A stretch of 64,000 nt of DNA from Paracoccaceae bacterium (GTDB lineage: Bacteria; Pseudomonadota; Alphaproteobacteria; Rhodobacterales; Rhodobacteraceae): NCBI GenBank assembly GCA_041594355.1, contig JBFHMM010000001.1:5872-69871 (forward strand). Direction: 5' to 3'. The translations under genes were made by a program, and so were the position numbers. Shown here in pieces: positions 36,579 to 51,744 of the stretch (position 1 is its first letter; each line of letters starts with the position of its first letter). The notes under the pieces were generated by a model. The model saw nothing but the letters and a program-made list of their open reading frames with translations, had not been told where the DNA came from and did not search any database.

Positions 36579-39500
36579 TTATTCGGTCTCCCGGCGCACC
36601 CGGTAGTGTATTCCGGCGGCAATCGGCCCATCGATCCGGGTCGGCGGGCCGGTGCGCCAGGCGATTTCAAGGCTGTCGATGCTGGCCGCCTGCCCCAGCC
36701 CGAAATGCACCCGCGGCGCGTCAAAGGACATGAATCCGCCGCCCGACTGCACCTCGCGGGTCTGGGTCCGGCCACCCGCGTAGGTGATCGTCAGCCGCGC
36801 GCCGATGCCATCGCGGTTGCCGGCCATATCCTCCAGCGAGACGGTGATCGATTTGGCCGTAGTGCCGTTGGCGGCCGTGTTCACGAAAGCCGCCAGCGGG
36901 CCGTTGACCGTATGGGTCACCAGATCCAGGTCGCCGTCGTTGTCGATGTCGAACGCGGTGGCGGCGGCGGTCATCAGGTAATCCTCGAGCCCGAAGGGAC
37001 CCGACATTTCCACAAAGCCGCCCTGGCCGTCGTTGTGGAAGAACAGGTTCGACGGGCTGACCTCGTTGGGGACCCAGGTGCCGTTGACCACATAAACGTC
37101 GAGCCAGCCGTCGTTGTCGAAATCGGCGATCTTCGTGTCCCAGCTCCAGCCACCGATCTCGAGCCCGCGTGGCCCGGCGGTGTCCGTGAAAGGCGCGGCG
37201 GGGTCATCGCGTTCCAGCAAGACGTTCGATCGCAGGACCTGCGGAATCGCGGCCTGCGATTCCGCCCCCGTGATCGCGCGGGGCGGCGCGAAATGGATAT
37301 CGCAATAGGCGCGCGGAATCACCTGATCGGCGGCGATCAGCTTGCACAGGGCCGGATCGCGGCGCTGGATCGCCAGATCCTTGACCAGCATCGCCTTGCA
37401 TTCCGCACCGTATCGTCCGCTCAGATCGGCACAGCGCCCGGCATAGGTCGGGTCGAAATTATTGCCCGCCTTGTACCAGCGCTTGATCGCCATGTTGGTT
37501 TCACAGGCCGCCTTGTCACCGGCATCGGCGATGGTGTCGCAATAGCGCTCCAGCGGCTGCATCTTCAGCGTCTCCGACACCCCCGAAGACCGCCCCGCGA
37601 TCTGGGCCAGATAGACCTCGGGCACCCCGTCGTTGAACAGGTCCGCGGATTTCACCGCCATCGTGGTGGTGGTCGTATGCGGGATCAGCCCGTCGCCATG
37701 GGTGATGGCCCGAAGATTGCCCTGCCCGTCTCCGACATAGAAATAATCCGGGATCTCAAAATCATTGCCGATCACCATGTCGGCGGCGCCGTCCAGATCC
37801 AGATCGCTGAACAGCACCGACAGGGTCTCGCCCGGGATGCCCGGCAGATCGGCAAAGACCGACCCGTCCAGCGGCGTGCCCTTGCTCAACAGCAGCCGGT
37901 TGCGCGATTCCTCTCCCGGCACCCGCCGGTACCAGCCCGCCGCCCAATTGCCGAGCGCGGCGTCGAGGAACCCGTCGCCGTTCACATCATCAAAGGCCAG
38001 CGCCAGGCTGAGCACGGCATTGTCCCTGTTGGGCACCGGCTGTGGGGTCGGGTCCAACACGCCCTCGCGGTTCCACAGCACGTAATTACCCTGCAGGTAG
38101 CTGGCCAGGAACAGATCCGGCCAGCCGTCGCGGTTCAGATCGTTGAGCGCGGCGTTGAACACGGGCAGGCCCGTCAACGGCTCTGATACGGGCGGATCGG
38201 CTGCAAACCGGCCCCGGCCATCGTTGCGATAGACATACAGCCCGCGCTCGGTCGAGGCGACGACCAGATCCAGATCACCGTCGCGGTCGATGTCGCCGGA
38301 GCTCAGGCTGCGACCCTCCCAGAACGGCGGCCACATGTCACGCATGGTGAATTCAAGCGGCTTGTCGATCCCCAGTGCGCGCGCCTCGCGGCGCCGGAAC
38401 GGGGTGTCGCCCTCTCCCGAGGGCGGCGCGTGGGGCTGTGCGGTCAGGGTGATCCGGTCCGCATCATCGCTGCGGATCATCGGGCCTTCGATCGTCGTGG
38501 CGTGGGCGGGGCGGAACAGCACCTGCTCGACGCTCAGCAGCAACTCCAGCGCGCGGTCGCTTTGCCAGTGGTGGTAGCGCTGCGCGCCCAGACCGGCGAT
38601 CACCCCCAGGCCGGCCACCGCCAGCGCCAGCAGCAGCGCGGCGCGCAGCGCGATGGTCTGCGCCACGATAAAGAAGGAATAGACACTGAACGACCCCAGC
38701 GTAAACACCAGCGCCATGACAAATCCCGGCTCCAGCCCGGCGGTCATCAGCGCACCGGCGGCCACCACGTCAAAGGCGATCGGCACCGGCAGGAACACCC
38801 CCACCGCGGCCACCACCAGCAGCGCCAGCAGGCCGAACGTCAGCCCCAGCACCGCATCGCCCGGCAGCAGTGTCGCCACCAGAGACCCCAGAAACCCCGC
38901 CAGCAGCATCAGCGGCACGGTCATCCGCACGATGTACCACAGGTTGGCCAGAAACAGCCGCCCCGTCGCCAGCATCGCCGTTCCGATGCTTTCGCCGCCT
39001 TCGTCCCTCTGCAGTTCAGCCGCGCTCCACGGCGTCGGCGCCTGCTGATCAGGCGCGGCCACCAGCGCCTCGCCCGGCAGGGTCCGGCAGATCAGCGGCA
39101 CCAGCACCAGGATCAGCAGCAGGCTGAGCGCCACCTTGGTCACCGCCATATAGACCGGCAGCAGGCTGAACAGCATGGTCAGCACCACCACGTTCAGCGT
39201 CGGCGAGGCCATCATCGCCGACAGCGTGGTCTCGGCCCTGAGCCCGCCGGAAAACATGCCGCGCGCAATCGGCGCGGCGCAGTTCACGCAGACTCCCAAT
39301 GGCGCGCCCAGCACCAGCCCCAGCGCCGAATTGGCAAACCGCCCCGAAAAACTGCGCCGCCGCAGAAACGGCACCGCGGTCAGAAAGGCGGCGGCGAAAA
39401 GCACGCCGAACGTCATGCCCTTCTTGTTGGTATTGACCCAGTTCAGGGTCGAATAGAACACCCGTTCCGCCAGCGACATGTCGGCGGTCAGCGCGATCTT

Positions 39501-39674
39501 GGCCTCGAAGCTCAGCGAATCCTCCAGCTGGATGGCCCCCGACATCATCGCCTTTTCATCCAGCGCGGGATAGCGCGAGCTGGTCCAGAACACATAGGCC
39601 AGCCCGGCCACGATCAGCAGCGCCAGCAGAAAGCGTTTTTCAAAATGCGGCTGGATGAATGACTGTTTCTGCAT
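36579..39674 (-). CDS. Permease (ArsP/DUF318-like) fused to FG-GAP beta-propeller and ASPIC/UnbV domain (CRTAC1-like)
   Basis: About 9 hydrophobic segments with GAPLGVCVNCAAP and ASPTLN. Seven DxD/NxDG-type motifs. C-terminal GNRDGIGARL...SGGGFMS...VHFGLG. Confidence 0.85.
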   Translation of the reverse strand: MQKQSFIQPHFEKRFLLALLIVAGLAYVFWTSSRYPALDEKAMMSGAIQLEDSLSFEAKIALTADMSLAERVFYSTLNWVNTNKKGMTFGVLFAAAFLTAVPFLRRRSFSGRFANSALGLVLGAPLGVCVNCAAPIARGMFSGGLRAETTLSAMMASPTLNVVVLTMLFSLLPVYMAVTKVALSLLLILVLVPLICRTLPGEALVAAPDQQAPTPWSAAELQRDEGGESIGTAMLATGRLFLANLWYIVRMTVPLMLLAGFLGSLVATLLPGDAVLGLTFGLLALLVVAAVGVFLPVPIAFDVVAAGALMTAGLEPGFVMALVFTLGSFSVYSFFIVAQTIALRAALLLALAVAGLGVIAGLGAQRYHHWQSDRALELLLSVEQVLFRPAHATTIEGPMIRSDDADRITLTAQPHAPPSGEGDTPFRRREARALGIDKPLEFTMRDMWPPFWEGRSLSSGDIDRDGDLDLVVASTERGLYVYRNDGRGRFAADPPVSEPLTGLPVFNAALNDLNRDGWPDLFLASYLQGNYVLWNREGVLDPTPQPVPNRDNAVLSLALAFDDVNGDGFLDAALGNWAAGWYRRVPGEESRNRLLLSKGTPLDGSVFADLPGIPGETLSVLFSDLDLDGAADMVIGNDFEIPDYFYVGDGQGNLRAITHGDGLIPHTTTTTMAVKSADLFNDGVPEVYLAQIAGRSSGVSETLKMQPLERYCDTIADAGDKAACETNMAIKRWYKAGNNFDPTYAGRCADLSGRYGAECKAMLVKDLAIQRRDPALCKLIAADQVIPRAYCDIHFAPPRAITGAESQAAIPQVLRSNVLLERDDPAAPFTDTAGPRGLEIGGWSWDTKIADFDNDGWLDVYVVNGTWVPNEVSPSNLFFHNDGQGGFVEMSGPFGLEDYLMTAAATAFDIDNDGDLDLVTHTVNGPLAAFVNTAANGTTAKSITVSLEDMAGNRDGIGARLTITYAGGRTQTREVQSGGGFMSFDAPRVHFGLGQAASIDSLEIAWRTGPPTRIDGPIAAGIHYRVRRETE

Positions 39675-39697
39675 GGGCGGTGTCCCCTGTAGGCAGG

Positions 39698-40351
39698 TCA
39701 ACTGTTCCACTTGATACCAGTGACTGCAAGCGTTGGCGCAAAGGCCTCGTAGATGCGTTGCCGCTGCGCCGTCGTCACCTGGTCCTTGCGGATCAGCGGG
39801 GTTTTGGAAAACTCGGACTTGGCCCGTGTGTGCAGCTGGAACTCCGCGATGCCGCGCCTGTCCAGGATCCGGGGCAGCGCCCATTTCAGCCGGTCATAGC
39901 GCAGCACCCGGTTGACCATCAGCACCCGGCGTCCGTTTTCCATCCGGCTGTACTTGTAGTGGTCGACGGGAAAATTCCCGGCCTCGCAATAGCTCTCCCA
40001 GCTGGCGTCATAGGCACCATCGGGATTGTGCAGCGCGGAATTGCGCAGCATGTGAAAATGGCTGATGCATTTCTCGACCGGTTCGCGTTCGACGCAGAAC
40101 CGGAACATCGCGCCAAAGCGCTCTGCGCCCAGCAGATCCGCGATCTCCTGCGCGGGCATATGGTTGTAATAGATCGTCTTGCCGCCCGCGTCGGCAAAGT
40201 TGCGTGCCCGGTGCCCCGGTACCGGCGGCAGGATCGGGGTGACGATGGCCTCCTCCTCGAGACGCCCCGACAGGTCCACCTCGATGCTGGTGCCCGCGGT
40301 CTTGGTCGTCTTGATGAAGATGAAATTATGCCTGAAGGACACAATCGCCAT
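39698..40351 (-). CDS. Sulfotransferase (family 2-like)
   Basis: IVSFRHNFIFIKTTKTAGTSIEV, YNH, EREPVEKCISHF, LRYDRL. Paralog of 10889..11755. Confidence 0.82.
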   Translation of the reverse strand: MAIVSFRHNFIFIKTTKTAGTSIEVDLSGRLEEEAIVTPILPPVPGHRARNFADAGGKTIYYNHMPAQEIADLLGAERFGAMFRFCVEREPVEKCISHFHMLRNSALHNPDGAYDASWESYCEAGNFPVDHYKYSRMENGRRVLMVNRVLRYDRLKWALPRILDRRGIAEFQLHTRAKSEFSKTPLIRKDQVTTAQRQRIYEAFAPTLAVTGIKWNS

Positions 40352-40426
40352 AACTGGACTTCCCTGCCCGAAGGCGCATCCGCCGCCTGCCCGTCACCTA
40401 TCTGTCAACCGGGCCAGCGCAACAGG

Positions 40427-40455
40427 AAAAAGGCCCCGGAACCCCGGGGCCTTTC
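40427..40455 (-). terminator. Rho-independent terminator downstream of the fibre gene
   Basis: Minus strand reads GAAAGGCCCCGG-loop-CCGGGGCCTTTTT, about 23 nt after the stop at 40478. Confidence 0.85.
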
Positions 40456-40477
40456 GATTGCTGGCGGATCGCGTCGA

Positions 40478-41629
40478 TCAGCCTTTTTCGATCTCGGCTT
40501 CCAGAACCTTGATGCGGTCGTTCAGCTGCTCAATGTAGATATGCGCGTGTTCCAGTTCGTTGAGCATGCGCAGCATCTTCTCGTTGACATTGATCGCGAG
40601 CGACGGGCCGGTCGGTCCAACCGCCGGCAGGTGCTTGTCGGCCCACATCTTCTCGGCGTGTTCCTCGATCGAGGGCACGGTGTAGACCTCGGGGTCGAAC
40701 ACCGCGTCACAGGGATCGGCCACGGTACAGGCGCCGCCGCCACCGGTGGTGATCAGGCTGCCGGTGATGGTCAGGTTGCCTGCCGGGGTCAGCAGGAATT
40801 CGGGCGCGCTGGTTCCCGCAGAGAGGCGGAGCGAATCGTTGTTGGTGATGGTCCAGATCTGGTTGTTGGTCTGGGCGGTGTTGATCATCGCGATCCGCAC
40901 CGGGCCGCTGTCCTGAACGATCACGTCGTCACCGGCATTCGGCGCGTCCTGATTCGTGCCGCCGACGCGGATGTGCAGCGGCGCGTTAGGGGCATCAGTT
41001 CCAAACCCAATGTTATTGTTGGCGGCGACAAACAGCGCGTTGTCGTCCGCACCCGGCTTGATCTTGAACGGCAGTTCGCTGCCGTTGGTGACGTCGCGGA
41101 CAAAGAAGTTGGTTTCGTTCGCGGCGATGTCAAAGGTCTGGGCGGTAAAGCCGGCCGAGCCGTTCTGTTCCAGCCGCAGGGTCGGGCTGTCGCCATCGGC
41201 GACATGCAGCTCGACAACCGGACTGGCGGTACCGATCCCGATATTGCCGCTGGAATTGATCCGCAGCGCGTTGGCGCCGGCGCCGGCATCGACGCGGAAC
41301 GGCTGGTTCCCGGCATCCGCATCCTCGATCGCCAGGTATTCGGAACCGCCGTTGGTGCTGTCGTTGGCGACGATACGCCAGTCCCGGGTCGGGAAGCTGC
41401 TGGAGCTCGAGGTGTCCTGGAAATGGATCCGCAGGTTGTTTTCCTTCAGCCGCAGCGTGTCCGAGCCAAAGCTTTCGCTGGAGGTACAGTCGAACCCGGT
41501 ACAGGTGCTGCCCTGCACGATCAGGTCGGTGGCAAAGACCTGCGCGGCGCTGGCGCCCTGGGCGGCAAAGCCGGTCAGCGCGGTGGTCAAACCCAGCATG
41601 GCCAGGCGGGTGTGGGTTTTTCTCATCAT
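40478..41629 (-). CDS. Secreted beta-rich fibre/adhesin-like protein with C-terminal chaperone-like coiled-coil
   Basis: Sec signal (ASA-AQ). Internal repeats ending GNIGIGTASP/NNIGFGTDAP. C-terminal DAVF..Y..PSIEE...HLP...LNELE...YIEQL. The longer ORF-track N-terminus overlaps the upstream gene. Confidence 0.75.
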   Translation of the reverse strand: MMRKTHTRLAMLGLTTALTGFAAQGASAAQVFATDLIVQGSTCTGFDCTSSESFGSDTLRLKENNLRIHFQDTSSSSSFPTRDWRIVANDSTNGGSEYLAIEDADAGNQPFRVDAGAGANALRINSSGNIGIGTASPVVELHVADGDSPTLRLEQNGSAGFTAQTFDIAANETNFFVRDVTNGSELPFKIKPGADDNALFVAANNNIGFGTDAPNAPLHIRVGGTNQDAPNAGDDVIVQDSGPVRIAMINTAQTNNQIWTITNNDSLRLSAGTSAPEFLLTPAGNLTITGSLITTGGGGACTVADPCDAVFDPEVYTVPSIEEHAEKMWADKHLPAVGPTGPSLAINVNEKMLRMLNELEHAHIYIEQLNDRIKVLEAEIEKG

Positions 41630-41661: not shown

Positions 41662-42123
41662 TCATTGATCGCCGTCTTCGTTCAGCGTTTCTGGCGTGAC
41701 GATCACGCCGCGCGACACCTGAAAGGAGCCGGTCTTGTAAAAGGGTTTGAAGGCCGATCCCGAAGCATCGCTGCCCCGGCCATTGTCGATCTGGTTGACG
41801 ACCTCGGCCTTCTCGCTGGTCGCCGCCGTCAGCTCGTAGGTATAGACGCCGTCCAGAATGCCCTGTCCGGACAACTGGAACACCGGTGTGCCGGCCCCGG
41901 CCTGAACATTGGTGATCTCGCCATTGGGCATCCGGATGCGCAGCTCCGCATTGCTCAGATCGCCCCAGTTCTCGAACCAGAAGGCGTTGGTGTTGTGCTG
42001 GGGCACCGGTTCTGCCGCCGTCACCGGGGCCGCGCCCCCCAGAACAAGAGCCAAGGCAAGCGACGCGATCATGATCGGGCCAGCAATCAAAGCCCCCATC
42101 CCGCACCGAAAACCTTCAAACAT
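41662..42123 (-). CDS. Small secreted protein, partner of the fibre gene
   Basis: Signal peptide (VTA-AE); beta-rich mature domain with DGVYTYELTAA and GSFQVSRG. Ends 32 nt before the fibre start. Start is 42123 or 42099. Confidence 0.7.
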   Translation of the reverse strand: MFEGFRCGMGALIAGPIMIASLALALVLGGAAPVTAAEPVPQHNTNAFWFENWGDLSNAELRIRMPNGEITNVQAGAGTPVFQLSGQGILDGVYTYELTAATSEKAEVVNQIDNGRGSDASGSAFKPFYKTGSFQVSRGVIVTPETLNEDGDQ

Positions 42124-42189
42124 TCGAATGTAACTCCCTGAAGCGAATGCATCTCTCGTAAAATCGCGGCACGCCCGCGCAGAGGCGGC

Positions 42190-42326
42190 CACTTGGTCGG
42201 CACTATACAGATTTCATTTCAAAAATCATGTTATTTTGGCAACTTTACGGCAGTGATGTTGCCCCGAACCGACAAGATCCGCCAATTGTTTGCCGTTACG
42301 GCAACAATAGACACTTTCCGGCGCGT
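42190..42326 (-). promoter_or_regulatory. AT-rich putative promoter region for the partner/fibre genes
   Basis: Markedly AT-rich intergenic stretch (atttcatttcaaaaatcatgttattttgg) in a GC-rich context. No specific box assigned. Confidence 0.4.
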
Positions 42327-43523
42327 TCAGCGCTCGATTGCCGCCCATTTCGCCTCGGCCCGGGTCTGGGCCTCGGCCAGCTGGCCGGGCGTCAGCCGGG
42401 GCCGCAGCAACTCTGCCGCCACCCGTGCCTCGGGATCGCCTGCCGACACCGCGAGGCTCAGCCACATGTAGCCCAGCACGTAATCCTGCGGCACGCCCTC
42501 GCCCTTGACGTACATCAGCCCCAGGTTGGTCATGGCGCCGCGCAGCCCCTTTCGAGCCGCGCGGGTGAACCAGATGGCCGCGTCCCGCGCGCCACCTTCC
42601 CGCAGCGCCAGACCGCCGGCCAGGTACTGCGCCAGCGGGTCGCCGGCGCGGGCCGCCCGCAGGGTATCGGCGCGCCAGCCCGGATCGTCGGCGGCGGGCC
42701 GGCTCAGCCGGGGATCAAAGCCATAGCTCAGCGCGGCGGCACTGTCGGGGCGCACCAACCCGGCGGCCTGCCGGTACAGCGCGGCGGCGCGGGCATCGTC
42801 CTGCGCCACGCCAAAACCGTTTTCATAAAGCACGCCCAGGTTGCGCACCGCCTCGGCCAGCCCGGACTGGGCCGCCTGTTCGAACAGGTTGGCGGCGGCG
42901 GCGTAATCCTGCGGCACCCCGTCGCCGCGCACATAGAGCAGCCCCAGGTTGTTCAGCGCCCTTGGATGACCCGTGGCGCCCGCCCTCTCGTACAGCGCCC
43001 GCGCCGCTGCATAATCCTGCGCCACGCCGGTGCCTTCCTGATACAGCACCCCCAGGCTGACCGCCGCCTCCACGTGACCCGCCTCGGCCGCGCGTTGATA
43101 CAGCGCCGCCGCAGCCGCCGGGTCGGGCGCGCCCGCCACCGGGGTGTCCAGCGCCCGCGCCAGGTTGAACAGGTAGTCCGGAACACCGCTTTGCGCCGCC
43201 TGCCGCAGCCAGTGCAGCGCCTGCACCTGGTCCGTCTCCGCGCTGTCTCCGGTCAGCCGGCGAACGTGATACAGCCCCAGCAGGTTCTGCGCCGCCGCCT
43301 GCCCCTGCTCGGCGGCCCGCAGCAGCCAGGGGCGGGCAGCGGCAAAGTTCTGTGGCACCCCCTGCCCCTGATCGAAACGCAGCGCCAGCTGGTACTGGGC
43401 CTCGGCGTCATCGGCCTCGGCCCGAGCACGCAGGGCCCCGAGATCGCCGTCCTGCGCCGAAACCGATGCCCCCGCCAGCAGCGCCACCAGCAGGACCGGG
43501 CCCATGAGCTGCCTCAGGGTCAT
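42327..43523 (-). CDS. Exported Sel1-repeat protein
   Basis: Signal peptide; repeated A..NLG..Y..G.GV.QD...A..Y..AA; terminal YMWLSLA. Confidence 0.92.
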   Translation of the reverse strand: MTLRQLMGPVLLVALLAGASVSAQDGDLGALRARAEADDAEAQYQLALRFDQGQGVPQNFAAARPWLLRAAEQGQAAAQNLLGLYHVRRLTGDSAETDQVQALHWLRQAAQSGVPDYLFNLARALDTPVAGAPDPAAAAALYQRAAEAGHVEAAVSLGVLYQEGTGVAQDYAAARALYERAGATGHPRALNNLGLLYVRGDGVPQDYAAAANLFEQAAQSGLAEAVRNLGVLYENGFGVAQDDARAAALYRQAAGLVRPDSAAALSYGFDPRLSRPAADDPGWRADTLRAARAGDPLAQYLAGGLALREGGARDAAIWFTRAARKGLRGAMTNLGLMYVKGEGVPQDYVLGYMWLSLAVSAGDPEARVAAELLRPRLTPGQLAEAQTRAEAKWAAIER

Positions 43524-45127
43524 TCCGATGCCGTCCCGGCCTGCGCCGAACCGGTCTCGAAATAGGTCCGCGCGCCGGCCTGCGCCTGCGCCACCTGTTC
43601 CGCTGTCATCAACTGCGAGATCACCTCGCGCATCTCAGCGGCATTGCTCAGCCCGTGGGTGGCGGCGACATTGAACCAGACATGCGCCTGAACGTAATCC
43701 TGTTCGACCGGCCCGCCTTCGGCGTAAAGCTGTCCCATCCGGAACTGGGCAAAGCTGTCGCCAGCCTGCGCGGCCTGCTGCAGCAACGCTACCGCCTGCG
43801 CGCCGCGCGCACCGTCATCAAGCGTCAGATAGAGATCGCCCAGCCGGCCCTGCGCCTGTGTGATCCCCGCCGCCGCCTGCGTCTCCAGCCAGCTCAACGC
43901 CTCGGCATCCCCGGCCTGCGCCGCCGCGTCAACCCAGGGCGCGGCCTCCTGCGGGGCGATCAGATCGTCGATCCGGCCCTGTGCCGCCAGCAGTCCCAGC
44001 CGCGCAGCGGCCACTTCGGCCACGTCCGGCCCCATGTCCAGGGCGCGGCGGTACTCCCGCACCGCCTGCCGCAGGTTCTGCGGCGTGCCGCGGCCTTCTT
44101 CCTGAAACGCCGCGACCACCAGCACCGCGCGTGGCAGGTTGCGGTCGGCAGCCCGCTGGTACCAGTCGAACGCGGTGGCATCATCGGCCGGCACCCCGGT
44201 GCCCGTGGCATAGGCGAAGCCGAGGTTGGTCATCGCCCCGGCATCGCCCGCCGCCGCCGCCGCCGTCAGCCAGCGCAGCGCCTCCTCGCCGTTCTGCGCC
44301 ACCCCGTCGCCGTGCAGGTATTTGGTACCCAGCATCCGCTGCGCCAGCGGATGGCCCGCCTCCGCGGCACGGCGGAACCAGGCCTGGGCCTGGGCCGGGT
44401 TCCTGGTCGTGCCATTGCCCGCATCCAGATTCAGCCCCAGGGAATACTGCGCCGCCGCCACCCCGGCCGCCGCGGCGCTCTCCATCCATTTCAGCGCCCG
44501 GGGGCCGTCCTCGTCGGTGCCCAGACCCTGGGCATAGGCCTGGCTGAGTGCGTATTGCGCCTCGCCATGCTGCTGTTTGGCGGCGGCCAGGAACCAGGTA
44601 AAGGCGGTTTCCTCGCTGCGCGGCACACCGCGGCCCAAACGATAGGCGACCCCCAGCAGGAACTGCGCCTCGGCGTCGCCCTGACTGGCGGCGCGCTGCA
44701 ACAGGTTGGCGGCGCGGGCCTGATCCTCGCCCACCCCTTCGCCGGCCATGTACATCCGCGCCAGCAGGGTGGCGGCAGCGACATGATCCTCCTCCACCGC
44801 CTCGGCCAGCCAGCGCACCGCCTGCCCCGGATCGCGGGGACCGCCGCGGCCTTCCTGCAGGATCCGGCCATAACGATACTTGGCATTCGGCGTGCCGCCC
44901 GGCGCCAGCTGCGCCAGCCCCTCGCGGGCGGTCACGTAATCGCCGGACCGGTAGGCCGCGACGATATCGGCCATTTCGGGCAGCCGCACCTGCGGCGCAT
45001 CGGCGGCATCCTGATCGACAGGAGTAGCAGTGTCAGAGGGCGCATCCGACGTCTGCGCAGGAATGGGCGCGGCGGTCAGACACAGGACCGCTGCGGCGGC
45101 AAGAGCAGCGGAAAATCGCAGGGACAT
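43520..45127 (-). CDS. Exported Sel1-repeat protein
   Basis: Signal peptide; many AQ..LG..Y..G.G...A..W..AA repeats; terminal HVWFNVAA. Confidence 0.92.
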   Translation of the reverse strand: MSLRFSAALAAAAVLCLTAAPIPAQTSDAPSDTATPVDQDAADAPQVRLPEMADIVAAYRSGDYVTAREGLAQLAPGGTPNAKYRYGRILQEGRGGPRDPGQAVRWLAEAVEEDHVAAATLLARMYMAGEGVGEDQARAANLLQRAASQGDAEAQFLLGVAYRLGRGVPRSEETAFTWFLAAAKQQHGEAQYALSQAYAQGLGTDEDGPRALKWMESAAAAGVAAAQYSLGLNLDAGNGTTRNPAQAQAWFRRAAEAGHPLAQRMLGTKYLHGDGVAQNGEEALRWLTAAAAAGDAGAMTNLGFAYATGTGVPADDATAFDWYQRAADRNLPRAVLVVAAFQEEGRGTPQNLRQAVREYRRALDMGPDVAEVAAARLGLLAAQGRIDDLIAPQEAAPWVDAAAQAGDAEALSWLETQAAAGITQAQGRLGDLYLTLDDGARGAQAVALLQQAAQAGDSFAQFRMGQLYAEGGPVEQDYVQAHVWFNVAATHGLSNAAEMREVISQLMTAEQVAQAQAGARTYFETGSAQAGTASE

Positions 45128-45206
45128 GAAGGGAAACTCAATCTTTTCAAGGTCAGGATGGATAGATCTAGCCACAGGCTAACGCAATGCAGGCGCTCTG
45201 GCGAGA

Positions 45207-45968
45207 TCAGATTGCCGTCAGCCCCGCCGCCGTCCACAGCCAAACCAGCGCCGCCGCCGCCGCCAGCGCCGCGCCAAAGGGCTGGCGGGCATCGCCCGCC
45301 GGCCCCTGTCCGGACCGGACCGCCGCCACCAGCACCGCCAACACCCCCAGAAGCGCCCCCGCCAGCACCACATGCGGCAACAGTCCCGGCCCGCAAAAGG
45401 CTCCGATCCCCGCCATCAGCTTGACGTCGCCCAGCCCCAGCCCCTCGCGCCCGCGCAACCGGGCATACCCCCGGCGGATTACCCAGAAACTACCGGCCCC
45501 CAGCACCGCGCCAAGACCGGCCATCGCGGCATGACCGGCCAGCCCCGCCCGCACCAGCGCCGCCAGCGCCAACGCCAGGGTCAGCACATCGGGCAGCCGC
45601 ATCCAGATCAGATCGCTGACCGCCAGCGCCAGCAGCAGCCACAACACCAGCGCCGTGAGCCAGACATGGGCCGCGCCGCCGCCGGCCAGCAGCGCCAGAA
45701 CCGCCAGCCCCGGCGCGGCAATCTCGAGATACAGATGCCAGGCCGGGATCGCCGCGCCACAGCCGCGGCACCGTCCGCGCGCCATGACAAAGGACAGCAC
45801 CGGCAGCAGGTCGCGCGGGCGCAATGCCCTGCCGCAGGCGCGGCAGGCCGAGCGCGCCCGCACCACGTCTTCGCCGCGCGGCAGCCGGTCGATCAGGACC
45901 CCCAGGAACGACCCCGTCGCCGGGCTGACCAACAGCAGGAAAACTGTAAAGAAATCGAGCTTGGGCAC
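45207..45968 (-). CDS. gspO: Prepilin peptidase (A24)
   Basis: GSFLGVLIDRLP, RSACRAC, GRCRGC, SD..WMRLPD, EGLGLGDVKL, PFG. GTG start inferred. Confidence 0.9.
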   Translation of the reverse strand: MPKLDFFTVFLLLVSPATGSFLGVLIDRLPRGEDVVRARSACRACGRALRPRDLLPVLSFVMARGRCRGCGAAIPAWHLYLEIAAPGLAVLALLAGGGAAHVWLTALVLWLLLALAVSDLIWMRLPDVLTLALALAALVRAGLAGHAAMAGLGAVLGAGSFWVIRRGYARLRGREGLGLGDVKLMAGIGAFCGPGLLPHVVLAGALLGVLAVLVAAVRSGQGPAGDARQPFGAALAAAAALVWLWTAAGLTAI

Positions 45969-46072
45969 GGGATGACGCGGCCTTTCGGATGAGGGGAAGC
46001 CAAGGCCCCGGCGCAGCTTGTCACCACATGGGGCAGTCCCTATTGTGCGCCCAAGTGATAGGCGTGGAACGG

Positions 46073-46540
46073 ATGACAATGCAACCGGATGCGACACGAC
46101 CGGCGGGTGGGTCCGCTTCTGCCGATGACGGATTCTCCCTGCTCGAACTGATGGTGGTCGTGGTGATCCTGTCGGTGCTGGCGCTGGCCATCGTGCCACG
46201 GGTGATCGACCGCCCCGACCAGGCGCGCGCCGCGCGGGCGACCTCGGACATCGCCGCGATCTCCAGCGCCATCGGCCTTTATAAGCTGGACAATTTCACC
46301 TACCCCAGCACCGCGCAGGGGCTGGCCGCGCTGACCACGCCGCCCTCGGTCGAACCGCTGGCGCCGAACTGGGCCTCAGGCGGCTATATCGCGCGGCTGC
46401 CCAAGGATCCCTGGGGGCGCGACTACCAGTATCTGCAGCCCGGGGTGCACGGCGCCTTCGACGTGTTCTCTTATGGTGCCGACGGTCAGCCCGGCGGCAG
46501 CGGGGCGAATGCGGACATCGGGTCATGGCAGGTCAACTGA
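46073..46540 (+). CDS. gspG: T2SS major pseudopilin
   Basis: GFSLLELMVV, YKLDN..YP..QGL.AL, LPKDPWG, SYGADG..GG.G.NADI. Confidence 0.96.
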   Translation: MTMQPDATRPAGGSASADDGFSLLELMVVVVILSVLALAIVPRVIDRPDQARAARATSDIAAISSAIGLYKLDNFTYPSTAQGLAALTTPPSVEPLAPNWASGGYIARLPKDPWGRDYQYLQPGVHGAFDVFSYGADGQPGGSGANADIGSWQVN

Positions 46541-47037
46541 TCCGCGCGCCAGCCGCCCGAAACGCGCCGGATGCCGGCTTTACCCTGATCGAGCTTCTGG
46601 TGGTGATCACCATCCTGTCGGTGCTGTCCGTGGGCGGCGCCATGCTGGCCACCAGCCGTGGCGGCAAAACCGCTGCCGACGCCAGCGATCTGGCCGCGTT
46701 TCGCGCCGCCCACACCCGGCTGCGCAGCCTTGCGGTGCATGGCCAGAGCCTGCGGGGCATGTATGTCACCCCGCAGGGCCGCCGCCTTGCCGAGCGCCGC
46801 GCGGGCCGGTGGCGCCCCACCGGACCCGAGCTGCGCTGGCGGAACCCGATGCGGTTCGACCCGGCCCGGCGCGCCGGCTTTGCCGACCCCGGCCTGCCCG
46901 AGGGTCCGGGCGCGCCGCAAATCCTCTATTACCCCGACGGGCGCAGCACCGCTTTCGAGGCGCGCTTCGGCACTGGGCGCGACCAAATCCGCTGCCGCAG
47001 CGACGGCTGGACCGACCTGCGCTGTGCCCCGCTATGA
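46525..47037 (+). CDS. gspH: T2SS minor pseudopilin H
   Basis: N-methylation site AGFTLIELLVV; position after gspG; YYPDG.S motif. Confidence 0.8.
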   Translation: MAGQLIRAPAARNAPDAGFTLIELLVVITILSVLSVGGAMLATSRGGKTAADASDLAAFRAAHTRLRSLAVHGQSLRGMYVTPQGRRLAERRAGRWRPTGPELRWRNPMRFDPARRAGFADPGLPEGPGAPQILYYPDGRSTAFEARFGTGRDQIRCRSDGWTDLRCAPL

Positions 47038-47408
47038 GACTGCGCTTTCGCACCCCGCCCGGCCTGACGCTGGTAGAGCTGCTGGTGGCGGTGCTGGTGC
47101 TGTCCATCGCAGTGGTCGGCACCTTTCGCACGCTGGATGTCTCGGGCCGCCAGATCGGTGGCGAATCCGAACGCCTGCTGGCCCGGCTGGTGGCCGCCAA
47201 CCGGGCCGAGGAACTGCGCCTGACCCGTGTCGCTGAACCCACCCCGATGCCCGGGCAGGTTCGGCAGGGGCCCTATGACTTCGACGTGGAGACCGGGCTG
47301 GAAACCACCGTCGGCGGGCTGGGCCAGGCCACCATCACCGTGCGCGGCCCCGGCGGCAGCGGCGCGGTGCTGGTCACCTATCTGCCTGCCCCCGCTGGCG
47401 GAGGGTAA
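47034..47408 (+). CDS. gspI: T2SS minor pseudopilin I
   Basis: GLTLVELLVAV, A..VA.NRAEE. ATGA coupling to gspH. Confidence 0.82.
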   Translation: MRLRFRTPPGLTLVELLVAVLVLSIAVVGTFRTLDVSGRQIGGESERLLARLVAANRAEELRLTRVAEPTPMPGQVRQGPYDFDVETGLETTVGGLGQATITVRGPGGSGAVLVTYLPAPAGGG

Positions 47409-47412
47409 GCGG

Positions 47413-48021
47413 ATGCGGCGCGGCCACCACCCCGATGCGGGCCTGACCCTAATCGAGCTGATCGTCGCCATGGCGCTCTTCGCGCTGGTCGCCGCCATGG
47501 GGCTGCAGGTGCTGAACGGCATGCTGCGCGCCCGCGACCGGCTGGTCGCCCGCTCCGATGACACCGGCGCGCTCAGCCTGACGCTGGCGCTGCTACGCCA
47601 GGATCTGCAGGCCACAGTGCCGCTGGGGTTTTCCGCCCCCGGCGTCCCGCCAGCGCCGCCGCTGACCACCACCCCCGGCCCCCGGCTGGCGCTATCGCTG
47701 GCCGGGCAATCCGGCCCCGGCATTCCCGAACACGCCGGGTTCCACCGGGCGATCTGGCGCTACGACCGCACGACCCAGCAACTGACCCGGCAGATCTGGC
47801 CCAGCCTCAGCCCCGCCACCGCATCGCAGCTGCAGCCCGCCACCCCCGTCCTGACCGGCGTGCAGGGGCTGGAGATCCGCCTGTTCCGCCCCGATCAGGG
47901 CTGGCTCGACTGGCGCGACCTGCCGGTGGATGTGATCCGCACCGACCTGCCCGCCGCCATCGAGGTCACGCTGGACACTGTCGCTTTCGGCCGGGTGCGG
48001 CTGGTAGAGACCCTATGGTAA
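47413..48021 (+). CDS. gspJ: T2SS minor pseudopilin J
   Basis: AGLTLIELIVAMALF, LRQDL, LPAAIEVTL...GRV. Confidence 0.88.
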   Translation: MRRGHHPDAGLTLIELIVAMALFALVAAMGLQVLNGMLRARDRLVARSDDTGALSLTLALLRQDLQATVPLGFSAPGVPPAPPLTTTPGPRLALSLAGQSGPGIPEHAGFHRAIWRYDRTTQQLTRQIWPSLSPATASQLQPATPVLTGVQGLEIRLFRPDQGWLDWRDLPVDVIRTDLPAAIEVTLDTVAFGRVRLVETLW

Positions 48022-48953
48022 GGCCCGCGGCCTCCGAGCGCGGCTTCGTGCTGGTCAACGCGCTGCTGATCGTGGCCGCGATGGCGGCGGCGGCGGCCTT
48101 GCTGCTGGGCCGGTCACAGGCGGCGCGTGTCCGGCTGGACCTGGCGCAGGAGGCGATGCAGGTACAGCTCTATCTCGACGGCGCCGAGGCGCTGGCGCTG
48201 ACGGTGCTGAACCGCGACCTGCGCGGCCCGGCGCTGGATCACCCGGAGGAATCCTGGGCCCGGCCCCATGACGTCACCGTTGACCGCGGCCGCGTGGCGC
48301 TGCGGCTGAGCGACTTGCAGGGGCGGTTCAACCTCAACACCCTGCGCAGCGCCACCGATCTGGCGGCGTTGAACCGATTCCTGCGGCTGGCCGACAGGAT
48401 CGCCCTGTCCGAACAGCAGGCCCGCGCCATCGCCGCCCATATCGCCGGGCCGCCGCCCGAACTGCTGGGCCGTTATGCCCGGCTGCCGGTGCCGATGTAC
48501 CCCACCGGCGGCGGCATCGCCGCGATCGGCGAACTGCGCCATGTGCCGGGGTTGGGGGGCGCGGCCTTTGACCGGCTGCAACAGGTGGCCGCCGTGCTGC
48601 CCGGCGGCGCACCGCTGAACATCAACACCGCCCCCGAACCGGTGCTGGCCGCCTGGTTGCCCGAACTGGGGGCCACGGCCCGGACCAAGCTGCTGGCGCA
48701 ACGCCGCGATGCCCCGTTCGAGACGCCAGAGGCCTTTCTCGACGCGCTCGAACGCCTGGTCCCCATCGACCGCGAGGCCCCGCATCTGCAGCCCCAGGGC
48801 TTCACCGTTGAATCCGACTGGTTCCTGGTGGAAAGTGCCGCCAGTCTGGCCACCTCCCGTCAGGCGCGGCACAGCGTGATCCGGCGCGGCGGTGCGCGGC
48901 GGCTGGCGCGGGTGGAGTACCGGCAGGCAACACAGGAGAAAGCAGAACCGTGA
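48015..48953 (+). CDS. gspK: T2SS minor pseudopilin K
   Basis: RGFVLVNAL, DH..E.W, DLQGRFNLN, ELRHVPG, NINTA. Confidence 0.92.
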   Translation: MVRPAASERGFVLVNALLIVAAMAAAAALLLGRSQAARVRLDLAQEAMQVQLYLDGAEALALTVLNRDLRGPALDHPEESWARPHDVTVDRGRVALRLSDLQGRFNLNTLRSATDLAALNRFLRLADRIALSEQQARAIAAHIAGPPPELLGRYARLPVPMYPTGGGIAAIGELRHVPGLGGAAFDRLQQVAAVLPGGAPLNINTAPEPVLAAWLPELGATARTKLLAQRRDAPFETPEAFLDALERLVPIDREAPHLQPQGFTVESDWFLVESAASLATSRQARHSVIRRGGARRLARVEYRQATQEKAEP

Positions 48954-50161
48954 GCGCCCGGCGTGCAAGAAACCGCAGCGAGGCGGAACCCGGGACCGCC
49001 TTTGCCCGGATCGGCGCTGGCCCGGCCGCAAATCCGGCCCCCGGTCAGGTGGTGCTGGTGCCCGGCGCACATGTGCCGGTGATCGCGCTGGATCTGCCCG
49101 CCGGCGTGCGCGGGGTTCAACGCGAGCGCATTGCCACCCGTGCCCTACGCGACCTGACCGGGCTGGACCCGGCCCGGATCGACATACGGCCCCTCCCCGG
49201 CCCCCGGCCGCAGGCCTGGAGCCGGGTGCTGGTGACCGATCCGGCCCGGCTGGCCGATTGGCGCGCCCGCAGTGCGGGCGCCCGCGCGCTGCTGCCCGAT
49301 TACCTGTCGCTGCCCGCCGCCGAGGGGCTCTGGACCCTGCAGCACCGGGCACCGGAAACCGACGACGCAGATGGCGAAATCCTCGCCCGGCTGGGCACCG
49401 ACGATGGCTTTACCATCGAAACCACCGCCGCCCGGCTGATGCTGGCCGCCGCGCTGCGCGAGGCGCCGCCGCGCGCGGTGCTGTGGATCGGCACACCGCT
49501 TCCGGATCTGGCGGCGCTGTTCGAGGCCGCCGAGCTGCCACAGGTCGACCGGGCCGAGGACGCCACCCGGCACGGGCTGGCCCCGCCATCGGTGCTGGGC
49601 CACGGCGAGGAAAGCTGTGATCTGCGGCAGGATCCCGGACAGGAACGCGACCACCTGCGGCGGCGGCTGCTGCCGTGGCGCTGGTCGGCGCTGGCGGCGA
49701 CGGCGGCGCTGGCTGTCTGGTGCGCGGCGCTGGCGCTGGAAACCCGCCAGCTGCGCGAGCGCACCGCCACCGTCACCGCGCAAACGCTGGAGATGACCCG
49801 GAAGTATTTTATCCCCGCCGGTCCGATCCTGGATATCCGCGCCCAGATCGGCGCCGAAATGGCCAGCCGACAGGCCCGGCTGGGTGTGGCCCGCGACCAG
49901 CGCTCAGGCCTGGACCTGATGAACCGCGCCGCAACCCTGATCGACCGGGCCGAGGCCACCGGCGTCGATGATCTGTCCTATACCGCCGACGGCGGGCTGG
50001 TGGCGCGGCTGCGGGTGCCCGATTACGCCGCCCAGGACCGGCTGGCCGAGACCCTGTCAGCGGGCGGGCTGGCGGTCGAGGTGATCGAATCGGGGCTCAG
50101 CGAGGATGGGGCCGAGGTTCGCGTCGAGATCGCCCTGGCCCTGGCGGAGGACGGCCAATGA
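48950..50161 (+). CDS. gspL: T2SS inner-membrane platform protein L
   Basis: Position K-L-M; LVPG, LLPDYLSLP, DLRQ motif before a single TM segment. Confidence 0.78.
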   Translation: MSARRARNRSEAEPGTAFARIGAGPAANPAPGQVVLVPGAHVPVIALDLPAGVRGVQRERIATRALRDLTGLDPARIDIRPLPGPRPQAWSRVLVTDPARLADWRARSAGARALLPDYLSLPAAEGLWTLQHRAPETDDADGEILARLGTDDGFTIETTAARLMLAAALREAPPRAVLWIGTPLPDLAALFEAAELPQVDRAEDATRHGLAPPSVLGHGEESCDLRQDPGQERDHLRRRLLPWRWSALAATAALAVWCAALALETRQLRERTATVTAQTLEMTRKYFIPAGPILDIRAQIGAEMASRQARLGVARDQRSGLDLMNRAATLIDRAEATGVDDLSYTADGGLVARLRVPDYAAQDRLAETLSAGGLAVEVIESGLSEDGAEVRVEIALALAEDGQ

Positions 50162-50652
50162 CCGACCGGTTGATCTTTGCCCTGCTGGGCCTGACGGGCC
50201 GGGAACGGCTGCTGCTGGCACTGCTGTGCCTGGTGGCGTTGCCGCTGGCGCTGTGGCTGGGCATGGTCGAGCCGCTGCAAGCCCGCCGTGACGCCGCCCG
50301 CAGCGATCTGGCGGCGGCCCGGATCCTGCAGCATTGGGTCAGTGTCCAAGCGGCGGACAGCGCCCGGATCGGCTCCGGCACCACCCCCGCAGAAACCCCG
50401 CCCATCGGCGTTTCCGGCCTTGAACAGAGCCTGATTTCCGCCGGGCTGCGCGATCACGTCAGCGATCTCAGCCGCCGCTCGGGCGACCGGATCGAGCTGC
50501 GTTTCGATGCCGTGCCGTTCTCGGATCTGGGTATCTGGATCAATCGCACCGCCCGCGGCTGGGGGTACGAGATGACCGCCTTTCGCATCCAGCAGGGACC
50601 GGAACCCGGTCTGGCCGAAGCGCGCTTCAGCCTCGCGCCCCGCCAGCCCTGA
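50158..50652 (+). CDS. gspM: T2SS protein M
   Basis: LTGRERLLL + TM + EPL; VPFSDL..W. Confidence 0.85.
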   Translation: MTDRLIFALLGLTGRERLLLALLCLVALPLALWLGMVEPLQARRDAARSDLAAARILQHWVSVQAADSARIGSGTTPAETPPIGVSGLEQSLISAGLRDHVSDLSRRSGDRIELRFDAVPFSDLGIWINRTARGWGYEMTAFRIQQGPEPGLAEARFSLAPRQP

Positions 50653-50670
50653 ACGTGGTCCCGGAGGCCC

Positions 50671-51186
50671 CTAGCCCTGCCCGGACAACTGCGCGTCCAG
50701 CTGCGACTTACGGGCCTTGATGGTGCCGATCTGGTCCAGCTCGGGATGGGTTTTCAAAACCTCGCCCAGAGCTGACTGGGCCGATTTCAGATAGGCCGCG
50801 CCACCCGCCCCGCCGCCGGCCATGCCCAGTTCGTGCTCGGCAGTGCCCTGAACCGCCAGCGCGGCGCTGCGGAAGGTGCCCTTCTGGCTGGTCGCCAGCC
50901 CGCGCGCCTGTTCGGCGGCCTGGGCATACTGGCCATTGCGCAGCAGCGCATGGGCATAGTCCAACCGGAACCGCGCCTCATAGCCGCCCGCCCCGTCCAG
51001 CAGCTGCGCGTAACCGCGCACCGCCTTGTCGTACTTGCCATCCTCCAGCGCCTCGCGGGCGGACAGGTATTGCCGGCGCATGGCGCTGTTGTCGCCGCTG
51101 GTCTCTGTGCAGGCGGTCAGCAGGACGCTGGCGCCAATGCACAGAACACCGGCCGCGACCGGGATCCGAATTCCATGTGTTTTCAT
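50671..51186 (-). CDS. TPR-like lipoprotein inside the T2SS cluster
   Basis: Lipobox LTAC; helical repeats (YLSAREALEDGKYDKA, YAHALLRNGQYAQA). Confidence 0.75.
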   Translation of the reverse strand: MKTHGIRIPVAAGVLCIGASVLLTACTETSGDNSAMRRQYLSAREALEDGKYDKAVRGYAQLLDGAGGYEARFRLDYAHALLRNGQYAQAAEQARGLATSQKGTFRSAALAVQGTAEHELGMAGGGAGGAAYLKSAQSALGEVLKTHPELDQIGTIKARKSQLDAQLSGQG

Positions 51187-51279
51187 GACCTGCTCTTTTG
51201 GTTTTTTCTTTATGTTTATATGAATTGGCCGATCCGGTCTACGCAGCTGATCGCGGTCGCGCCGCATACGGGGAAAACT
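51187..51279. promoter_or_regulatory. AT-rich divergent promoter region (lipoprotein / gspC-D-E-F)
   Basis: tttggttttttctttatgtttatatgaattgg lies between divergent genes. Confidence 0.45.
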
Positions 51280-51744
51280 ATGGCAGTTCGGTTACTCGCA
51301 TTTCTCTGCGCCCTGGCGGCGCTGGCCGGGCTGGCGCTGGCGGCGCGCGACCTGAACCGGGTGCTGCGCGCGCCCGCGCCCGACACCGTTGCCGCGCAGC
51401 CCGGCGGCGCACAGCCGCAGCCCCCAACCCCCGCGCCGCCCGTCCCGCCGGCGCAGGCCTGGCCGCCGTTGTTCGGCACGCTGGTGGTGCCTGAACCGCA
51501 GCCACCGACGCCGCCGCAACCCCCCGCCCCACCGGCGCCGCCGCTGTCCAGCCTGGGTTTCACGCTGAAAGGCACGGCCACGCTGAACGGCGAAACCTGG
51601 GCGATCCTGGCACACCCCACCGGCGAACGGATCCTGCGGGTGGGCGACTTGCTGGCCGAGGGGCTGCAGGTCGTGGCGATCGACGACAGCGGGCTCTGGG
51701 TTGGTAGAAACGGTGGCCGCGAAGTGCTGGAATTCTCGCAATAG
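51280..51744 (+). CDS. GspC-like T2SS protein (TM, Pro-rich linker, HR-like domain, no PDZ)
   Basis: N-terminal TM, PLFG, Pro-rich linker, LKGT...WAIL...RVGD.L.EG..V..I. Upstream of the secretin. Confidence 0.7.
   Translation: MAVRLLAFLCALAALAGLALAARDLNRVLRAPAPDTVAAQPGGAQPQPPTPAPPVPPAQAWPPLFGTLVVPEPQPPTPPQPPAPPAPPLSSLGFTLKGTATLNGETWAILAHPTGERILRVGDLLAEGLQVVAIDDSGLWVGRNGGREVLEFSQ

What the first reader, a model, noticed from the sequence alone, without database searches (positions are those of the whole stretch)
40478..41629. Signal-peptide-bearing, tail-fibre-like protein as likely T2SS cargo
Seen: a 383-aa protein rich in Asn/Thr/Ser/Gly. It has two clear ~75-aa repeats (PFRVDAGAGANALRINSSGNIGIGTASPVVELHV vs PFKIKPGADDNALFVAANNNIGFGTDAPNAPLHI) and a degenerate third. 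Cys pairs CTGFDC and CTVADPC are present, and the C-terminus ends in a heptad coiled-coil. A strong terminator follows, consistent with a more abundant transcript than downstream genes. From recollection, GNxGIGT repeats plus a DxVF...HLP...E..Y tail occur in trimeric fibres with peptidase-S74-like intramolecular chaperones, but the canonical SDxRxK motif is absent. No phage genes are nearby. Inference: a domesticated trimeric adhesin.
Basis: partly seen in the sequence, partly recalled or inferred. Interest (0 to 1): 0.75.

Follow-up and report, generated by a model that had tools for sequence, protein, structure and literature searches.

The report
Split tail-fibre-like protein beside T2SS
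This gene encodes an exported protein built like a phage tail fibre; it belongs to a very large, unnamed bacterial family, and in marine Alphaproteobacteria it is inherited together with its own type II secretion system, which probably exports it.

Summary
The 383-aa ORF (40478-41629, minus strand) is real and has a Sec signal peptide. It has two significant ~80-aa repeats and a degenerate third, two conserved Cys pairs, a heptad C-terminal helix and a strong terminator hairpin.

The repeats are homologous to the trimeric beta-helix shaft of Bdellovibrio MAT fibres (PDB 8OND) and of marine phage tail fibres. The family is bacterial: 596+ genome loci against one viral contig. It has a conserved N-terminal stem, a hypervariable segment and a portable C-terminal cap.

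The cap is not Peptidase_S74. It has no Ser-Lys dyad, no Pfam hit and no fold match. Relatives with the same stem do end in true S74, T9SS or CBM2 domains.

The 176-aa upstream gene is the detached base domain of ~530-aa fused homologues (hhalign 99.5%).

The order T2SS-GspO-Sel1-Sel1-base-fibre-FG-GAP/ASPIC permease recurs in 26 of 79 loci. Across 151 genera of the host family, all 5 genomes with the fibre also have GspL, against 3 of the 146 without it.

T2SS cargo is therefore well supported by genomics but unproven. Trimer formation, surface display and adhesion are inferred.

The scan has met this family before on other DNA (e.g. e1-4200750).

The parts
40478..41629 (-). Fibre gene, 383 aa plus stop (P0001)
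   Evidence: 5866+ homologues; 21,649 representative clusters at E<=1e-3
41546..41629 (-). Sec signal peptide, aa 1-28, AxA cleavage site ASA/AQ
   Evidence: sequence reading; hydrophobic N-terminus and AxA kept in the alignment
41315..41545 (-). Conserved N-terminal domain, aa 29-105, with invariant C43/C48 (DLIVxGSxCxGxDC); its later part overlaps repeat unit 1
   Evidence: mean pairwise identity 0.62; invariant columns; shared at 50-70% identity with longer homologues that have other C-termini
41201..41464 (-). Shaft repeat unit 1, aa 56-143, ending GNIGIGTASPVVELHV
   Evidence: internal repeat E 1e-9; matches the 8OND beta-helix
40970..41188 (-). Shaft repeat unit 2, aa 148-220, ending NNIGFGTDAPNAPLHI
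   Evidence: tblastn to cyanophage and pelagiphage tail fibres at ~31% identity
40760..40969 (-). Hypervariable segment, aa 221-290, including the degenerate third unit; putative ligand-binding tip
   Evidence: mean pairwise identity 0.22 against 0.5-0.6 on either side; gappy in A1; local match to Bd2133/Bd3182 beta-helix at Z ~5
40481..40744 (-). C-terminal cap domain, aa 296-383: C301/C307 pair, DxVF, HLP, ELExAHIYIEQL, heptad helix; non-S74
   Evidence: model pLDDT 90.5, pTM 0.77; conservation; also ends long YadA-head-repeat proteins
40424..40456 (-). Intrinsic terminator hairpin plus U-tract after the fibre gene
41662..42192 (-). Upstream partner gene (153-176 aa, own signal peptide): the detached base domain of the fused ~530-aa homologues
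   Evidence: phmmer gives 18 fused homologues; hhalign 99.5%, E 2.9e-22; directly upstream of the fibre gene in 39 of 82 loci
42327..45175 (-). Two Sel1-repeat proteins with N-terminal hydrophobic signal-like segments (42327-43523 and 43520-45175)
   Evidence: Pfam Sel1 4.7e-46 and 1.8e-66; syntenic in 32 loci
45207..46199 (-). Prepilin peptidase GspO, first gene of the minus-strand arm
   Evidence: Pfam A24_N_bact and Peptidase_A24
45989..56578 (+). Divergent T2SS arm: gspG, (H), I, J, K, L, M, C, D, E, F
   Evidence: Pfam hits
36579..39884 (-). ArsP-type permease fused to an FG-GAP propeller and ASPIC/UnbV domain; the most widely conserved neighbour of the fibre family
   Evidence: Pfam; an FG-GAP/ASPIC protein lies within a few kb in 45 of 79 loci across phyla; same presence/absence pattern in relatives

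Best explanation
The gene encodes the shaft-and-tip subunit of a two-piece, phage-tail-fibre-like fibre of the kind described in Bdellovibrio as MAT (mosaic adhesive trimer) fibres.

Shown here:
- It is Sec-exported.
- Its repeats are homologous to a shaft that is trimeric in crystals.
- It has a conserved N-terminal stem, a hypervariable pre-C-terminal segment and a conserved, portable C-terminal cap that lacks the S74 protease dyad.
- The upstream 176-aa gene is the detached N-terminal base domain of single-chain homologues.
- The pair is inherited together with a complete T2SS, GspO, two Sel1 proteins and an FG-GAP/ASPIC permease.

Inferred:
- Both pieces cross the inner membrane by Sec and fold in the periplasm, where the Cys pairs are oxidised.
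- The C-terminal coiled-coil cap brings three chains into register, doing the job S74 does but without cutting itself off.
- The folded trimer leaves through the adjacent dedicated T2SS, in the way PulA uses the Pul system.
- It stays on the cell surface through the base domain, with the variable segment binding a ligand. That ligand is most likely a glycan, given the sulfated-polysaccharide genes around it.
For: Fibre homology:
- phmmer to 8OND Bd2133, E 9.7e-7, aligned on both GNxGIGT units.
- Foldseek top PDB hit 8OND, probability 0.99.
- 84 BFVD tail-fibre hits.
- PHROG tail-fibre families.
- The MAT paper describes trimeric beta-helices, an invariant N-domain after the signal peptide, swapped tips, and S74 and non-S74 classes (PMC10769870).

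Modular design:
- Longer homologues share aa ~27-220 at 50-70% identity. They end in PF13884, a T9SS sorting domain or CBM2.
- Identity by region is 0.62 / 0.61 / 0.50 / 0.22 / 0.5.
- The cap also ends YadA-head-repeat proteins.

Split base: hhalign 99.5%, E 2.9e-22.

T2SS link:
- The gsp set is complete.
- The gene order recurs in 17 Rhodobacterales-type and 9 Maricaulis-type loci.
- The fibre, GspL and the ASPIC permease occur in the same 3 of 41 relatives.
- Across 151 genera, 5 of 5 fibre genomes have GspL against 3 of 146 others.
Against: - No trimer model could be made. The monomer model has pTM 0.38, and structural matches to MAT shafts are only Z ~5.
- Homology of the N-domain to the MAT N-domain was not tested.
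- Outside Alphaproteobacteria (39 of 79 loci) no T2SS gene lies within 8-10 kb, and Bacteroidota relatives use T9SS. T2SS is therefore a lineage-specific route, not a family property.
- No known T2SS substrate is a fibre of this kind.
- Nothing here shows surface location, a ligand, or whether the cap is retained.
- Related genomes are not independent samples.
Confidence: 0.55

Rival explanations
1. It is a glycan-directed protein of the flanking sulfated-polysaccharide pathway: a tailspike-like lectin, chain organiser or depolymerase acting on the cell's own exopolysaccharide, rather than an adhesin for foreign surfaces. It could still leave the cell by the T2SS.
For: The block sits among sulfotransferase and glycan genes (note e1-5451290). 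GT2, DegT aminotransferase and sulfotransferase genes recur beside family members in other phyla. Phage fibres with the same repeats typically bind polysaccharide (general knowledge).
Against: No enzyme domain or catalytic motif was found. The variable segment is only ~70 aa. Glycan genes are common neighbours of any surface protein.
Confidence: 0.2
2. It is a periplasmic or envelope-spanning structural part of a Sel1/ASPIC-permease/T2SS apparatus and never leaves the cell, so it is not cargo.
For: It is co-inherited with the Sel1 proteins and the permease-propeller as tightly as with the T2SS. The FG-GAP/ASPIC link is wider than the T2SS link, at 45 of 79 loci.
Against: Relatives with the same stem carry T9SS sorting domains, CBM2 or dockerin, which mark extracellular proteins. 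The hypervariable segment suggests exposure to diversifying selection.
Confidence: 0.15
3. It is a self-cleaving S74-type fibre whose chaperone domain has diverged beyond recognition.
For: The cap occupies the same position as S74 in relatives. There is a weak hhalign match of the last helix, 72.7%, E 3e-5.
Against: There is no Ser-x4-Lys and no conserved Ser/Lys pair in 198 members. PF13884 is not hit at E<=10. No S74 structure is found by profile or fold.
Confidence: 0.04
4. It is a prophage or phage remnant tail fibre.
For: The shaft repeats match cyanophage and pelagiphage tail fibres at ~31% identity.
Against: No phage genes are nearby. It has a Sec signal peptide. There are 596+ bacterial genome loci against one viral contig, and that one is a giant-virus MAG. 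Synteny with cellular genes is stable.
Confidence: 0.02

Closest known systems
Bdellovibrio bacteriovorus MAT (mosaic adhesive trimer) fibres, non-S74 class, e.g. Bd2133 (PDB 8OND) and Bd1334 (8OML); Caulton et al. 2024, PMC10769870
   Same: A signal peptide is followed by a conserved N-terminal domain. The GNxGIGT...LHV beta-helix repeats show detectable sequence homology. A conserved stem carries exchangeable C-terminal parts, and S74 and non-S74 versions exist within one family.
   Different: It is about a third of the length (383 against ~1000 aa). The base domain is split off as a separate gene. The C-terminal cap is helical, unlike any solved MAT tip. It is encoded with a dedicated T2SS, Sel1 proteins and an FG-GAP/ASPIC permease, and it is found in non-predatory marine bacteria. 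N-domain homology and trimer state were not tested.
Phage tail fibres and tailspikes with the Peptidase_S74 intramolecular chaperone (PF13884; endosialidase type)
   Same: The shaft repeats are homologous. A conserved C-terminal module follows the variable part. Close relatives of this protein carry true S74.
   Different: There is no Ser-Lys dyad, no PF13884 match and no fold match. It is a Sec-exported cellular protein.
Pullulanase PulA with the Klebsiella pul T2SS cluster (cargo encoded divergently beside its own secreton; general knowledge)
   Same: The candidate cargo lies on the arm divergent from the gsp operon of a complete T2SS. It is exported by Sec and could fold in the periplasm.
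   Different: PulA is a monomeric lipoprotein enzyme. Here the candidate is a fibre with a partner protein, and secretion has not been shown.
Trimeric autotransporter adhesins (YadA family)
   Same: It is probably a trimeric surface fibre with a coiled-coil segment. Its cap domain also ends proteins with YadA-head repeats (PF05658).
   Different: There is no C-terminal beta-barrel anchor. The C-terminus is a soluble helical domain, so type Vc export cannot apply.

Membership tests
MAT-like / phage-tail-fibre-like trimeric beta-helix fibres | Shaft repeats homologous to the trimeric beta-helix of solved fibres | tested here: met
   8OND E 9.7e-7 on both repeat units; Foldseek 8OND probability 0.99; PHROG tail fibre 1.4e-9; 84 BFVD hits
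MAT-like / phage-tail-fibre-like trimeric beta-helix fibres | Signal peptide followed by a conserved N-terminal beta-rich domain homologous to the MAT N-domain | tested here: inconclusive
   A signal peptide and a highly conserved N-domain are present. No MAT N-domain sequence or structure was available for comparison.
MAT-like / phage-tail-fibre-like trimeric beta-helix fibres | Conserved stem with exchangeable C-terminal domains | tested here: met
   Homologues share aa 27-220 and end in S74, a T9SS sorting domain, CBM2 or this cap. The variable segment has identity 0.22.
MAT-like / phage-tail-fibre-like trimeric beta-helix fibres | Homotrimer | not testable with these tools
   Only monomer prediction was available (pTM 0.38).
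Peptidase_S74 intramolecular chaperone (PF13884) | Catalytic Ser-x4-Lys (SDxxxK) dyad at the start of the domain | tested here: not met
   There is no such motif in aa 286-383, and no conserved Ser/Lys pair in 198 family C-termini.
Peptidase_S74 intramolecular chaperone (PF13884) | Match to the family profile | tested here: not met
   No PF13884 hit at E<=10 for the whole protein or the C-terminus alone. Relatives P0121, P0272 and P0276 score 1e-17 to 1e-18 in the same kind of scan.
Peptidase_S74 intramolecular chaperone (PF13884) | Shared fold with solved chaperone domains | tested here: inconclusive
   hhalign 72.7% over the last helix only. The PDB profile search found no S74. The best VIA Z was 4.7, to generic helices. 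BFVD S74 rows had E>1.
Type II secretion substrate | Sec or Tat signal peptide giving a periplasmic intermediate | tested here: met
   Sec-type signal with an AxA site, read from the sequence.
Type II secretion substrate | Genetic linkage and co-occurrence with a complete T2SS | tested here: met
   complete gsp set; 26 of 79 loci; 5 of 5 fibre genomes have GspL against 3 of 146 others
Type II secretion substrate | T2SS-dependent appearance outside the cell | not testable with these tools
   Needs secretome analysis of gsp mutants.
Trimeric autotransporter adhesin | C-terminal YadA-type beta-barrel anchor | tested here: not met
   No Pfam hit. The C-terminus is modelled as helices at pLDDT 90.

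The most novel reading that the evidence does not exclude
The block is an undescribed assembly pathway for surface fibres. A dedicated T2SS, two periplasmic Sel1 scaffolds and an inner-membrane permease-propeller export and anchor a two-piece trimeric fibre. The fibre's new C-terminal cap is a non-proteolytic counterpart of the S74 chaperone, and its hypervariable tip reads a glycan code. This would also answer how MAT-type fibres reach and hold on to the cell surface.
Probability: 0.3. Interest if true: 0.75.

Novelty: new variant of a known kind. Interest (0 to 1): 0.5.

Why it matters
Tail-fibre-like fibres of bacteria were described experimentally only in Bdellovibrio (2024). How they are exported and what anchors them is still open.

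This family has thousands of members in marine and soil bacteria, and neither its stem nor its cap has a Pfam model. In cultivable Alphaproteobacteria with the same cluster it comes packaged with a complete T2SS and a fixed set of partners. Examples are Sulfitobacter sabulilitoris, Mameliella alba, Antarctobacter heliothermus and Maricaulis maris.

This turns the export and anchoring question into a simple genetic experiment. It also defines two new domains, the base/stem and the non-S74 cap, that annotation pipelines now call 'hypothetical'.

Tried and rejected
- Pfam and NCBIfam gave nothing on the protein itself.
- The S74 idea was tested five ways: a Pfam scan of the C-terminus alone, hhalign against an S74 profile built from relatives, a PDB profile search, a VIA-align wide search of a confident domain model, and BFVD. 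Only a marginal last-helix similarity was found.
- A weak profile hit of the cap to the TAX1BP1 zinc fingers (E 0.2) was dismissed as chance.
- VIA-align of the whole monomer model gave only Z ~5 local beta-meander matches. WD40 blades tied with the Bd fibres, so this is not informative.
- A prophage origin was rejected.
- A trimeric autotransporter was rejected because there is no anchor.
- The consensus terminator scanner missed the hairpin, but folding confirmed it.
- Literature searches for this family with T2SS, ASPIC or Sel1 found nothing relevant.

Full report
**1. The observation**

The minus-strand ORF 40478-41629 translates to a 383-aa protein (P0001).
- It is preceded by an SD-like GGGAAAGAG, 32 nt after the stop of the upstream gene.
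- It is followed by a 12-bp GC-rich hairpin with a U-tract. The 76-nt region folds at -40.1 kcal/mol, z -3.8. The simple consensus scanner did not list it.
- The N-terminus is a standard Sec signal with an AxA site, and this is kept in homologues.
- Residues 56-143 and 148-220 align at 31% identity, E 1e-9. A third unit (aa ~244-288) is only E 0.19.
- C43 and C48 are invariant. C301 and C307 are present in ~85% of 198 members.
- The last 35 residues form a helix with heptad spacing.
- N+T+S+G is 32%, with Ala the commonest residue.

**2. What the protein is**

Pfam and NCBIfam give nothing. Three other lines place it among tail-fibre-like proteins:
- PHROGs finds tail-fibre families at 1.4e-9 and 6.7e-7.
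- A PDB sequence search finds the Bdellovibrio Bd2133 fibre (8OND, E 9.7e-7) and Bd1334 (8OML), aligned exactly on the GNxGIGT...LHV units.
- The AF2 monomer model (pLDDT 75.6, pTM 0.38) has 8OND as its top Foldseek PDB hit, probability 0.99. It has 84 BFVD hits at E<=1e-3, nearly all phage tail fibres, and many of those end in S74 domains.

In the MAT paper these units form intertwined trimeric beta-helices. The paper also reports that all MATs have a conserved N-domain after the signal peptide and exchangeable tips, with S74 and non-S74 classes (PMC10769870). VIA-align of the monomer model gave only local Z ~5 matches. This is expected for one chain taken out of an intertwined trimer, and it adds little.

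**3. The family**

The family is very large and is bacterial.
- More than 5,866 proteins of similar length match.
- 21,649 representative clusters match at E<=1e-3, and 1,592 at 1e-30.
- 596+ loci were found in species-representative genomes, from Rhodobacterales, Maricaulales, Gammaproteobacteria, Acidobacteriota, Saprospiraceae, Opitutales and Acidimicrobiia.
- IMG/VR held a single locus, a giant-virus MAG, and that matches only the C-terminal cap.
- Cultured phages match only the shaft, aa 49-241, at ~31% identity.
- Within the host's own family the gene is patchy: 2 of 24 genomes, and 5 of 151 genera.

**4. Architecture**

Mean pairwise identity in alignment A1, by region:

| Region | Identity |
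|---|---|
| N-domain | 0.62 |
| Repeat 1 | 0.61 |
| Repeat 2 | 0.50 |
| aa 221-290 | 0.22 |
| C-terminal domain | 0.47-0.50 |

- Longer homologues share aa ~27-220 at 50-70% identity and then diverge. They end in PF13884 (true S74), a T9SS sorting domain or CBM2.
- Giant proteins carry three copies of the module, together with S74, dockerin and a metalloprotease.
- The protein is therefore a conserved stem, a hypervariable segment and a cap.

**5. The C-terminal cap**

The cap does not meet the tests for S74:
- There is no Ser-x4-Lys, and no conserved Ser/Lys pair, in 198 members.
- There is no PF13884 hit at E<=10, whereas relatives score ~1e-17 in the same kind of scan.
- A profile of 49 caps finds no S74 chain in the PDB.
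- A confident model of the domain alone (pLDDT 90.5, pTM 0.77) finds only generic helical hairpins, best Z 4.7.
- In BFVD it finds one Megaviridae protein (E 8e-5), with S74 rows at E>1.
- hhalign against an S74 profile built from relatives gives 72.7% over the final helix only.

The same cap (DYVF...SIEEHAxFMW..KHLP...ELExAHIYIEQL) sits at the extreme C-terminus of long Bacteroidota proteins. These have GNxGIGT units and YadA-head repeats (PF05658).

It is therefore a portable end-module of fibres that are expected to be trimeric. It occupies the place of S74 and probably acts as a registration or trimerisation device that is not cut off. That last step is inference.

**6. The partner**

- phmmer finds 18 of them.
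- Profile-profile comparison gives 99.5%, E 2.9e-22.
- The small gene lies directly upstream of the fibre gene in 39 of 82 loci.

The functional unit here is thus a split version of a single-chain protein. The small protein most likely docks on the fibre's N-domain as its base.

**7. Context**

The window holds a complete T2SS: GspG, I, J, K, L, M, C, D, E and F on the plus strand, and GspO heading the divergent arm. The minus arm reads GspO, Sel1, Sel1, partner, fibre, terminator, a 217-aa protein, then a permease/FG-GAP/ASPIC fusion.

- This order recurs in 17 Rhodobacterales-type loci. A permuted order (GspD, ASPIC, Sel1, Sel1, partner, fibre) recurs in 9 Maricaulis-type loci.
- An FG-GAP/ASPIC protein lies within a few kb in 45 of 79 loci. 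This includes 14 of the 39 loci from other phyla that have no T2SS nearby.
- GT2, DegT and sulfotransferase genes also recur beside the fibre gene.
- Among 41 relatives, the fibre, GspL and the ASPIC permease are found in exactly the same three genomes.
- Among 151 genera of the family, all 5 fibre-bearing genomes have GspL, on the same contig where the assembly allows. Only 3 of the other 146 have it, and those three are more divergent.
- Related genomes are not independent samples. Even so, the block is clearly gained and lost as a unit.

**8. Mechanism and limits**

The best-supported reading has four steps:
1. Both pieces are exported by Sec.
2. They are oxidised and trimerised in the periplasm, with the cap setting the register.
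3. The folded fibre leaves through the dedicated T2SS.
4. It is displayed on the surface, with the variable segment as the ligand-binding part, most likely for a glycan.

Homology, modularity, the split base and the genomic linkage are shown. The trimer state, the export route, retention of the cap, surface location and the ligand are inferred.

Outside Alphaproteobacteria the family evidently uses other routes; T9SS domains in Bacteroidota are one example. T2SS dependence is therefore a property of this lineage's version, not of the family.

**9. Novelty**

The kind of protein is known (MAT fibres, 2024). The following features are not described in the papers I could search:
- the short split form;
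- the non-S74 cap;
- the fixed association with a T2SS, Sel1 proteins and an ASPIC permease.

The scan has met the same family before on other DNA, and those follow-ups reached similar readings (e1-4200750, e1-1253222, e1-1387261, e1-2303372). My tests were made independently on this window and agree with them.

Noticed in passing
window 41662-42192 (-): The 176-aa secreted protein upstream is homologous to the N-terminal extension of ~530-aa single-chain homologues (hhalign 99.5%). It is a gene split and gives Rosetta-stone evidence for a physical partnership. Its fold was not determined.
   Followed up: yes
window 36579-39884 (-): The ArsP-type permease fused to an FG-GAP propeller and ASPIC/UnbV is the most widely conserved neighbour of the fibre family. 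FG-GAP/ASPIC proteins lie within a few kb in 45 of 79 loci across at least five phyla. The ~1030-aa forms in other phyla show no Pfam-detectable permease part.
   Followed up: partly
P0385-P0403; L083:8001-8255: The C-terminal cap domain also ends long Bacteroidota proteins with YadA-head (PF05658) repeats. It also occurs on a giant-virus MAG contig and in a Megaviridae protein. It has no Pfam model.
   Followed up: partly
P0121-P0124 (3409-4928 aa): Giant proteins carry three copies of the stem module, interleaved with Peptidase_S74, dockerin, PKD and an M10 metalloprotease. They may be true polyproteins or merged gene calls.
   Followed up: no
window 39698-40351 (-): The 217-aa ORF between the terminator and the permease gene has no Pfam hit. 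It has 58-59% identical homologues next to the fibre gene in Maricaulis maris (L016) and Mameliella sediminis (L053).
   Followed up: no
G153 (three places) and G102:C104 (two adjacent places): Some genomes of the same bacterial family carry two or three fibre paralogues, in one case in tandem. Their C-terminal halves differ, which is consistent with tip diversification.
   Followed up: no
window 40424-40456 (-): The consensus terminator scanner missed a textbook 12-bp hairpin plus U-tract that folding confirms. This is probably because the A/U pairs at the stem base use up the U-tract.
   Followed up: yes
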